A stretch of 64,000 bases of DNA. Source: Lingula anatina. Lineage: Eukaryota > Animalia > Brachiopoda. Within the stretch, counting starts at the first letter, position 1, and every line of letters begins with the position of its first letter. Below are positions 62,882 through 64,000 of the stretch, in pieces. The translations under genes were made by a program, and so were the position numbers. The stretch is from assembly GCA_051362555.1 (NCBI GenBank), contig CM120642.1:16120001-16184000 (forward strand). The letters are read 5' to 3'. The notes under the pieces were generated by a model that made no database searches, had not been told where the DNA came from, and was given only the letters and a program-made list of their open reading frames with translations.

Positions 62882-64000
62882 TTAACATAAAAAAGGGATG
62901 TGAATTAAATTGCTCTGCAACAGCTGATTAGCCGCAGCCTCAATCTGAGGTATCCATAGCAACAGGCGACCAAGACGCATTGACCTTTGAGGGTGCTTGA
63001 TCTCGATGACCTCCTGAAGTATCTGAACAAACTGATCTTGTAAGGCTTGTCTCTCTTCTTCTGCCTCTTCGCCTTCAGCTGGAAAATAAAAAGCAGATTA
63101 TAGGTTATCTACATGTCACAAGTGTTTTCCTGTGATCATGATTAAGGGCCAGGAAAAGAAAGCTGTGAATTACGTTACCTGTTAATAATGGTGGAAGAGT
63201 CATAGACAAATATCAAGGATGCAAAAAATTTCTCATCAAATAAACAAATAACCATTGTAGCGATTTGGGGTGAGTGCAGAAAAATCACCGACCAGACCAG
63301 GAATCGAACCCGGGACCCCTCGCTTACAGGGCGAGTGCTCTTACCTACTGAGCTACCCGGCTGGTTCTACCTGCCCCTGGCACTACACTCCTCCCCCCAA
63401 ATGCCGAAAGACGCAAACCCTATCTCGCACAACCGCTGCCACCATTGTATTTATTGACTGATTATTTAATCAAATAATTAATAAAATGTTAAAATCGAAT
63501 GAATATTTTGCAAATTCTGGGAATGATAATGATATCAAACTTTACAGAAATTACACCAAAAGCAAATTCTCCTGTCATTTCTTGAAAAATAACTTTAAAA
63601 CCCTTTTTCTTAGGCAAATTACTCATCCCAAATGCCTTTCAATCAAACAATGCTTAATAAATGCAGATATCACCTAAAATAATCTTTACAGTATTCATTT
63701 CAGAATATGAATTGGACTACTAGTTCATGAACTCGAATCCCTTCAAATCATGACATATTATGATGTACTGGTAGATTCAAAACTGGAAGCCATAATTTGT
63801 TAAAATCTATGCTGATAATTAAGAGCTAAGTTTGGAACACGCTGTACAGAGAAAGATGGAGAAACAAATTGCTTTTTGTATATTGATCTTATTCCTCTTA
63901 ATGAAGTCAGCTTTCAAAGCAATTCCAACCACAATGCAGGGCTTAGGGATGAAAGGAGTAAAGATTTGTTTGCTGCGCTTACCTAGATTGAGCAGAAGAA
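62882..64000 (-). CDS. 3' end of a nuclear receptor ligand-binding domain, NR6A (HR4/GCNF)-like; partial
   Basis: Exons 64000-63983 and 63078-62882, phase-1 GT-AG: ..LLLNL|AEGEEAEEERQALQDQFVQILQEVIEIKHPQRSMRLGRLLLWIPQIEAAANQLLQSNLIHIPFLC*. This fits the helix 8-11 pattern, and the tail resembles the recalled insect HR4 ending PEIQAAASLLLESKMFYVPF. Confidence 0.78.
63251..63449 (-). mobile_element. Miniature LTR retroelement (TRIM) with tRNA-derived LTR, Helenus-like
   Basis: Minus strand: TACA-A-TGGTGGCAGCGGT (PBS, 63444-63432), short internal region, GGGGGGAGGAG (PPT, 63398-63388), LTR TGTAGTG...CGCTACA (63387-63256) containing A box TAGCTCAGTAGG, B box GGTTCGATTCC and TTTTT. Confidence 0.8.

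What the first reader, a model, noticed from the sequence alone, without database searches (positions are those of the whole stretch)
63251..63449. The mini-element is circularly permuted: one LTR, with the LTR-end/PBS junction duplicated at both ends
Seen: ACCATTGTA at 63251-63259 and 63441-63449, 190 bp apart. This 9-mer is the element's own U5-end/PBS junction (TACA-A-TGGT on the minus strand). The order is junction-PBS-internal-PPT-LTR-junction, with no second LTR and no integrase-type TSD. Inference: integration of a 1-LTR DNA circle or a monomer of a circular/tandem RNA by crossover at this junction, rather than normal LTR integration. If this recurs genome-wide, it would be a distinct mobilisation route.
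Basis: partly seen in the sequence, partly recalled or inferred. Interest (0 to 1): 0.75.

Follow-up and report, generated by a model that had tools for sequence, protein, structure and literature searches.

The report
Half-finished Helenus copy caught in break
This is one oddly ordered copy of a known miniature jumping element (Helenus), absent from other versions of the same chromosome site, and it is likely a half-finished reverse-transcription product that was probably patched into a DNA break, not a new way of jumping.

Summary
In detail: 4 nt of LTR end, internal part (PBS to PPT), one 132-nt LTR, then 5 nt of PBS start. There is no second LTR and no TSD. The element is Helenus-1_LAn (Kojima 2024); the LTR matches the published consensus at 131 of 132 nt. 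Contigs of public runs show the site both filled and empty. The one empty allele that can be read has 3 other letters and lacks the 9-mer, so crossover at a shared 9-mer is refuted. The insert carries 4- and 6-nt fillers. The 9-mer is two short stubs, not a duplication of host DNA. PBS-internal-PPT-LTR-PBS stub is the order of an LTR cDNA stalled at the second strand transfer, so capture of such an intermediate by end joining is the best reading (about 0.6). A slice of a tandem array or circle is the main rival. In the small sample of other copies seen, ends lay at the ordinary LTR borders and no second permuted copy appeared; no genome was held for a full count. Known family, known kind of accident, tidy natural example.

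The parts
63247..63250 (.). Left filler, 4 nt, not from the element and absent from the empty allele; with its neighbours it completes a 7-nt direct repeat of the flank 8 nt upstream
   Evidence: joints from 63246 in X2 and X9; the 4-mer lies within 12 nt of 31% of window positions, so weak
63251..63255 (-). 5-nt stub after the LTR: spacer A plus the first 4 nt of the PBS, complementary to the last 4 nt of tRNA-Leu-AAG; likely a trimmed PBS tail or primer remnant
   Evidence: origin inferred
63256..63387 (-). Single complete LTR, 132 nt, TGTAG...CTACA; 131/132 identical to Helenus-1_LAn-LTR (difference at 63362)
   Evidence: compared by eye; all 23 RNA reads over 63362 carry the consensus letter
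63288..63363 (-). tRNA-Thr(TGT)-like Pol III cassette inside the LTR, followed by a T5 run at 63284-63280
   Evidence: ARAGORN; Rfam RF00005 51.6 bits, E 8.5e-10, acceptor-stem mismatch; T run read from the sequence
63388..63398 (-). Polypurine tract, 11 nt, directly before the LTR
   Evidence: sequence; same end as the published Helenus LAn internal parts
63388..63445 (-). Internal part, 58 nt; 4 substitutions and 1 deletion from Helenus-1_LAn-I, 4 substitutions from Helenus-3_LAn-I
   Evidence: by eye; tables 3-4 show the five Helenus-1 letters in reads of other copies
63432..63444 (-). [quoted passage not shown]
   Evidence: (tRNA end as printed in Fig. S2, from honeybee), compared by eye
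63446..63449 (-). 4-nt stub of LTR end (U5) before the internal part; all that is present of a 5' LTR
63450..63458 (.). Right filler: 6 nt (63450-63455) if 63456-63458 is the empty allele's 3 letters with one substitution, otherwise 9 nt with a 3-nt deletion; the 6-mer is an inverted copy of sequence 2 nt left of the break
   Evidence: 5% of window positions have this 6-mer within 12 nt, so suggestive only
63079..63982 (-). Predicted host intron (GT at 63982, AG at 63079) holding the insert, in a nuclear-receptor-like gene; the element lies in the gene's sense direction
   Evidence: splice signals; next exon: PF00104, E 0.0012, 18.8 bits, below the curated cut-off 23.5; splicing not shown

Best explanation
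This is a single dead-end copy of the Helenus-1_LAn miniature LTR retrotransposon, likely a reverse-transcription intermediate that stalled at the second strand transfer and was probably captured in a chromosome break by host end joining. Shown: family identity, permuted order, no TSD, filler bases at both ends, and an empty allele without the 9-mer. From textbook LTR biology: before the second jump the minus strand reads PBS-internal-PPT-LTR, and the plus strong-stop strand ends in a PBS tail copied from the tRNA primer. Inferred: the 4-nt U5 stub is either RNA left by RNase H just upstream of the PBS or a few bases of aborted extension after the jump. The 5-nt stub is the trimmed PBS tail or primer remnant. 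Integrase cannot use a molecule with one LTR end, so repair enzymes joined it in and added short fillers, perhaps templated from the break's left edge. The '9-mer duplication' is these two stubs added to the element's normal sequence.
For: Both ends lie within 5 nt of the one junction where this intermediate is predicted to end; two random ends on a 190-nt period would do so about 0.3% of the time. The empty allele lacks the 9-mer and both fillers (X2), so all 199 nt came with the donor. The diverged run X9 also skips the element from the same left point, 63246. At 5 listed right-flank sites a depth-32 contig of X2 shares its letter with X9 against the window, which fits the empty state being ancestral. 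No TSD, whereas the family makes 4-bp TSDs. The internal part with the private letter at 63417 runs into the right flank in one contig at single-copy depth (75.4 against 75.1 left), so there is no identical second unit. RT steps: PMC3185662, PMC7197481. Precedents: Ty1 intermediates captured at breaks, 40/56 3' LTR inserts with cDNA-only bases (PMC11372161); 2-15 nt PBS remnants at proviral 3' junctions (PMC2797772); about 50% of Tf1 cDNA keeps a single-stranded PBS tail (PMC11042837).
Against: No base is diagnostic of cDNA: the stub is too short to reach tRNA-only sequence, so a slice of a tandem array would read the same. The 0.3% figure is post hoc, since the finding was picked for these ends. 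I found no paper giving a 4-5 nt U5 remnant; PMC7197481 says only 'just upstream of the PBS'. The filler statistics are weak (5% and 31%). X9's 55 letters were not printed, so absence of the 9-mer rests on one contig of X2. The left-flank contigs of X2 (empty) and X6 (filled) share letters at 63111 and 63178 that the window and X9 lack, which allows a secondary loss in X2, recombination or merged haplotypes. No contig spans the insert.
Confidence: 0.6

Rival explanations
1. The insert is a slightly more than unit-length slice of a tandem Helenus array or of a one-LTR circle, copied or ligated into a break (templated insertion or end joining), its ends falling near the junction by chance or because a gapped circle is weakest there.
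For: Same sequence outcome as the best reading. Tandem arrays are known for Helenus LTR-11_DR and bivalve TRIMs (PMC6934838); one-LTR circles and gapped circular intermediates are known (PMC7197481). Fillers and no TSD fit equally.
Against: It gives no reason for both ends to sit within 5 nt of the junction (about 0.3%). No tandem array was seen in these data. Summed depth over the LTR is about four times that over the internal part in X1 (a rough figure, not a copy number), which does not suggest arrays dominate.
Confidence: 0.25
2. An ordinary integrase-made insertion or short array was later cut back by deletions, leaving 4 nt of one LTR and 5 nt of a second internal part.
For: Ordinary copies with normal LTR borders are common in all three close runs; eroded TRIMs are common.
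Against: Needs an array plus two deletions that each stop within 5 nt of the junction and of the host flank, remove the TSD and leave at most 3 nt of host DNA missing. The copy has only a few private changes. No remains in the flanks.
Confidence: 0.07
3. One reading: a one-LTR DNA circle or circular-RNA monomer recombined into a host site at a shared 9-mer, as a recurring route.
For: The permuted order and terminal 9-mer look like a Campbell-type integration. Tf1 without integrase does insert at host sites matching the first bases of its PBS (PMC11042837).
Against: The readable empty allele has no 9-mer, and the fillers are unexplained. No second permuted end among the loose-end rows shown. 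The back-joint 63440 to 63251 in DNA and RNA is what every normal 5' LTR-internal junction gives, so it is no sign of circles.
Confidence: 0.04
4. Assembly artefact: a collapsed repeat.
For: No contig spans the whole insert.
Against: Each junction is in two samples (left X1, X6; right X1, X2), and a collapse of LTR-internal-LTR would give a solo LTR, not this order.
Confidence: 0.04

Closest known systems
Helenus-1_LAn (Helenus/TRIMp3, Lingula anatina; Kojima 2024, PMC10886601; read parts 1-5 of 6 of the text, supplement by term search only)
   Same: LTR 132 nt, 131/132 identical; tRNA-like cassette in the LTR; 58-nt internal part with PBS and PPT; 190-nt unit.
   Different: Published form is LTR-internal-LTR, 323 nt, 4-bp TSD. 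This copy lacks the 5' LTR bar 4 nt, has 5 nt of PBS after the 3' LTR, fillers and no TSD. The text I read does not describe such copies.
Capture of Ty1 cDNA replication intermediates at double-strand breaks (PMC11372161, passages and section 10 read; Moore & Haber 1996 and Yu & Gabriel 1999 seen only as reference-list entries)
   Same: Retroelement DNA with intermediate-type extra bases put into a break by end joining, without integrase or TSD.
   Different: Yeast inserts are fragments of a coding element at induced breaks. Here the whole internal part plus LTR of a tiny element is kept, at a natural site that is polymorphic. The break itself is inferred.
Integrase-independent Tf1 insertion through the single-stranded PBS tail (Li et al. 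2022, PMC11042837; passages and Discussion read)
   Same: LTR followed by the first five bases of the PBS; 5' part of the element missing; no integrase.
   Different: In Tf1 the PBS-like bases pre-exist in the target. Here the empty allele lacks them, so they came with the donor.
Abnormal proviral junctions with partial PBS (PMC2797772; passages read)
   Same: A few PBS bases kept after the 3' LTR, plus bases of unknown origin.
   Different: In the three proviruses sequenced at both ends the 5' end was intact and integrase-processed; here there is no 5' LTR.
Tandem TRIM arrays (PMC6934838, passages) and retrozymes with circular RNAs (PMC4918200, search listing only)
   Same: Head-to-tail LTR-internal junctions, from which a permuted monomer could be cut.
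   Different: No array at this locus. Rfam found only a tRNA match here and no ribozyme. No sign of a circular RNA could be drawn from the reads.

Membership tests
Helenus (TRIMp3) | tRNA-derived sequence inside the LTR | tested here: met
Helenus (TRIMp3) | Short non-coding internal part with PBS and PPT | tested here: met
   58 nt; 13-nt match to tRNA-Leu-AAG end; 11-nt PPT
Helenus-1_LAn | Sequence identity to the family consensus | tested here: met
   LTR 131/132; internal part 4 substitutions and 1 deletion; by eye
Helenus (TRIMp3), intact copy | Two LTRs | tested here: not met
   one LTR plus a 4-nt stub; it is a defective copy of the family, not an intact member
Helenus (TRIMp3), intact copy | 4-bp TSD (animal Helenus) | tested here: not met
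   empty allele
Helenus (TRIMp3) | Pol III transcription from the tRNA-like promoter | tested here: inconclusive
   50 reads in three RNA runs, both strands in X11, no start or end pile-up; poly(A)-type libraries are ill suited
Circle integrated by crossover at shared homology | One copy of the repeated word at the empty site | tested here: not met
   X2 joint 63246 to 63459 with 3 letters between; X9's 55 letters not printed
Recurrent permuted-insertion route | Other copies with the same permuted ends | tested here: inconclusive
   none in 24 of 61 contig rows shown or in 6 of 6 read rows; no genome held
Captured reverse-transcription intermediate | Ends at the PBS/U5 border and just past the 3' LTR, no TSD | tested here: met
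Captured reverse-transcription intermediate | Bases found only in cDNA (tRNA sequence beyond the PBS match) | tested here: inconclusive
   the stub holds 4 tRNA-complementary bases, identical in PBS and tRNA
End-joining insertion at a break | Filler or templated bases at the junctions, small or no deletion | tested here: met
   4- and 6-nt fillers, 0-3 nt lost; templating only suggestive

The most novel reading that the evidence does not exclude
Because the Helenus cDNA is only about 200 nt, its pre-second-jump intermediate is often captured whole at breaks, so 'PBS-internal-PPT-LTR-PBS stub' copies without TSD form a recurring class across Helenus-bearing genomes: an integrase-free side route that makes SINE-like, one-LTR copies and records in the germ line where RNase H and primer removal stop for an unstudied Gypsy-type reverse transcriptase.
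Probability: 0.1. Interest if true: 0.6.

Novelty: new member of a known kind. Interest (0 to 1): 0.3.

Why it matters
As it stands it is a small, clean natural example of an LTR-element cDNA intermediate that was likely fixed in an animal germ line, with the empty allele still present for comparison. It supports, indirectly, that Helenus is copied by the standard tRNA-primed LTR pathway, which the family paper argues from structure alone. It also warns that a terminal repeat on a permuted element need not be a target duplication or a crossover scar. It would matter more if such copies proved common, since they would be missed by two-LTR annotation and misread as tRNA genes or SINEs.

Tried and rejected
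Whole-genome count of copies: no genome held. Other copies in the window: none. Collection scans for further copies: 9 metagenome hits match only the tRNA-like part, 56-57 nt at 86-88%; 0 hits in genome contigs; 15 viral hits are 15-23 nt chance matches. No RNA holder was listed for the stretch, which says nothing on expression. RNA reads: none on the intron flanks of this locus, so no allele state from them. X6 has no cover at 63463-63543; a hole proves nothing. The back-joint 63440 to 63251 (1 contig in X1; 4 and 2 reads in X11 and X14) was rejected as evidence of circles, since every normal copy has it. A row of 3 X2 contigs ending at 63254 (LTR plus 2 nt) is ambiguous: chance 0.12 per end. 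LINE-type insertion rejected: no poly(A) or simple-repeat tail and no TSD. Reading ATGGT or the 9-mer as a TSD rejected by the empty allele. Earlier-findings look-ups by sequence and in this genome gave nothing. Paper searches for a described PBS-to-LTR permuted copy found none; these cover open-licence papers only. Two papers wanted for Ty1 end structures were not held.

Full report
Observation. The 9-mer is at 63251 and 63441, exact and not extendable, and nowhere else in the window. On the minus strand the GC-rich insert (57% against 35% and 25% in the flanks) reads: 4 nt of LTR end, a 58-nt internal part, a 132-nt LTR, then 5 nt of internal start. No convincing remains of a second LTR lie in 550 nt on either side (9, 7, 77 and 100 of 200 shuffles reach the best scores), and no 4-6 nt duplication fits any of 12 boundary pairs.

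Identity. The LTR holds a tRNA-Thr(TGT)-like cassette. The supplement of Kojima 2024 (PMC10886601) lists Helenus-1_LAn from the brachiopod Lingula anatina; its LTR differs from this one at 1 of 132 positions, compared by eye. The internal part differs from Helenus-1_LAn-I by 4 substitutions and a deletion, and from Helenus-3_LAn-I by 4 substitutions. The PBS matches the tRNA-Leu-AAG end printed in that supplement over 13 nt. The normal family form is two LTRs, 323 nt, 4-bp TSD. The host is therefore likely Lingula or a close relative. The insert lies in a predicted 904-nt intron of a nuclear-receptor-like gene (the Pfam match is below the curated cut-off).

The empty site. No genome was held, so I laid contigs of 4 of the 10 DNA runs that hold the stretch. 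X1, possibly the window's own source, has both junctions with no differences. X2 has the right junction (63369-63488, 0 differences, depth 17.7) and also a contig that joins 63246 to 63459 with three letters, GAT, between (depth 37.3). X6 has the left junction; its right side is uncovered. X9, a diverged run, joins 63246 to 63504 with 55 unprinted letters, against 48 expected from the X2 allele. So the site is polymorphic and the readable empty allele has no 9-mer. The insert is 4 nt of filler, 199 nt of element and 6 nt of filler if the three letters differ from 63456-63458 by one substitution; otherwise 3 nt were lost and the right filler is 9 nt. At five listed right-flank sites (63547, 63562, 63571, 63577, 63590; 40 of 74 rows shown) a depth-32 X2 contig shares its letter with X9 against the window, which fits an ancestral empty state if that contig belongs to the empty allele (inferred from depth). 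Against this, the left contigs of X2 and X6 share two letters that the window and X9 lack, so merged haplotypes, recombination or a secondary loss in X2 are not excluded.

One unit. In X1 the internal part with the private letter at 63417 continues into the right flank in one contig at depth 75.4, equal to the left flank's 75.1. An identical second unit would have broken that contig. A different hidden unit cannot be excluded, as no contig spans the insert.

Other copies. Of 61 loose-end rows, 24 were shown. Twelve contigs leave the element at the ordinary LTR borders (63256: 3 in X2, 2 in X6; 63387: 3 in X1, 2 in X2, 2 in X6). The 4 contigs loose at 63251 continue into the PBS, and the 9 loose at 63449 continue, by their consensus letters, into LTR-like sequence: normal junctions. 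Three X2 contigs stop at 63254 (LTR plus 2 nt), which is ambiguous. In raw RNA reads of three studies (34, 8 and 8 reads laid; all 6 rows shown) loose ends fall at 63256 (6 reads), 63255 (4) and 63387 (3), three more rows lie inside the LTR, and none is at 63251 or 63449. No second permuted copy was seen, but this samples perhaps a dozen or two ends of a family whose summed LTR depth is on the order of a hundred times the flank (rough), so a minority class is not excluded.

Mechanism. In LTR reverse transcription the minus strand is primed at the PBS, jumps to the 3' end, and is extended through U3, PPT and the internal part to the PBS; the plus strong-stop strand copies the LTR and runs on into the tRNA primer (PMC3185662, PMC7197481; passages). 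Before the second jump is completed the molecule therefore reads PBS-internal-PPT-LTR-PBS tail, the order seen here. The 4-nt U5 stub would be template left by RNase H, whose cuts are described as 'just upstream of the PBS', or aborted extension after the jump. The 5-nt stub would be the trimmed tail or primer remnant. With one LTR end it is no integrase substrate (established knowledge), and the fillers point to end joining. The right filler is an inverted copy of bases 2 nt left of the break and the left filler completes a short direct repeat, but these have 5% and 31% background rates. Precedents exist for each piece: Ty1 intermediates captured at breaks, PBS remnants at proviral junctions, PBS-tailed Tf1 cDNA inserting without integrase. 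The steps from intermediate to capture are inferred, not shown.

Rivals. A slice of a tandem array or circle gives the same letters and is not excluded (0.25), but leaves the end positions to chance (about 0.3%, post hoc). Erosion of a normal insertion needs an array and two precise deletions (0.07).

Verdict. A real, polymorphic, aberrant copy of a published family, most likely made by a known kind of accident. My searches of open-licence papers found no description of this exact whole-intermediate form in a TRIM. Two unchecked scan notes describe similar captured intermediates in other genomes; they are leads, not support. Interest 0.3; a genome-wide tally of ends would decide whether it is more than a curiosity.

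Noticed in passing
window 63388-63445: The internal part mixes diagnostic letters: Helenus-3-type at 63430-63431 and in PPT length, Helenus-1-type in the middle, joined to a Helenus-1 LTR. It may be an undescribed subfamily or a template-switch recombinant.
   Followed up: partly
window 63288-63363: ARAGORN calls the LTR cassette a tRNA-Thr(TGT) gene; such copies will inflate tRNA counts in this genome, as the family paper reports for rust fungi.
   Followed up: no
window 63280-63284: A T5 run directly follows the tRNA-like cassette in the LTR. A Pol III transcript from a 5' LTR must read through it to reach the PBS, which is unexplained.
   Followed up: no
window 63466-63648 (run X2): Two haplotypes in one sample differ at 11 letters and 1 gap in 183 nt (about 6%), and run X9 under the same species label differs by about 10-15%: very high diversity or cryptic species.
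   Followed up: no
window 63254 (run X2): Three similar contigs leave the element after LTR plus 2 nt of the junction; chance, or another copy with an unprocessed end.
   Followed up: no
window 63188-63195: An 8-nt match to the LTR/PBS junction lies on the + strand about 55 nt left of the break, inverted relative to the element; probably chance, not tested.
   Followed up: partly
window 62888-63078 and 63983-64000: Exons of a nuclear-receptor-like gene on the minus strand (weak ligand-binding-domain match); 2 RNA reads in X17 on the exon.
   Followed up: partly
window 37204, 38379, 40437: The same 15-nt AT-rich stretch recurs three times, and 1077/1132 share a 16-nt stretch; possibly other small repeats.
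   Followed up: no
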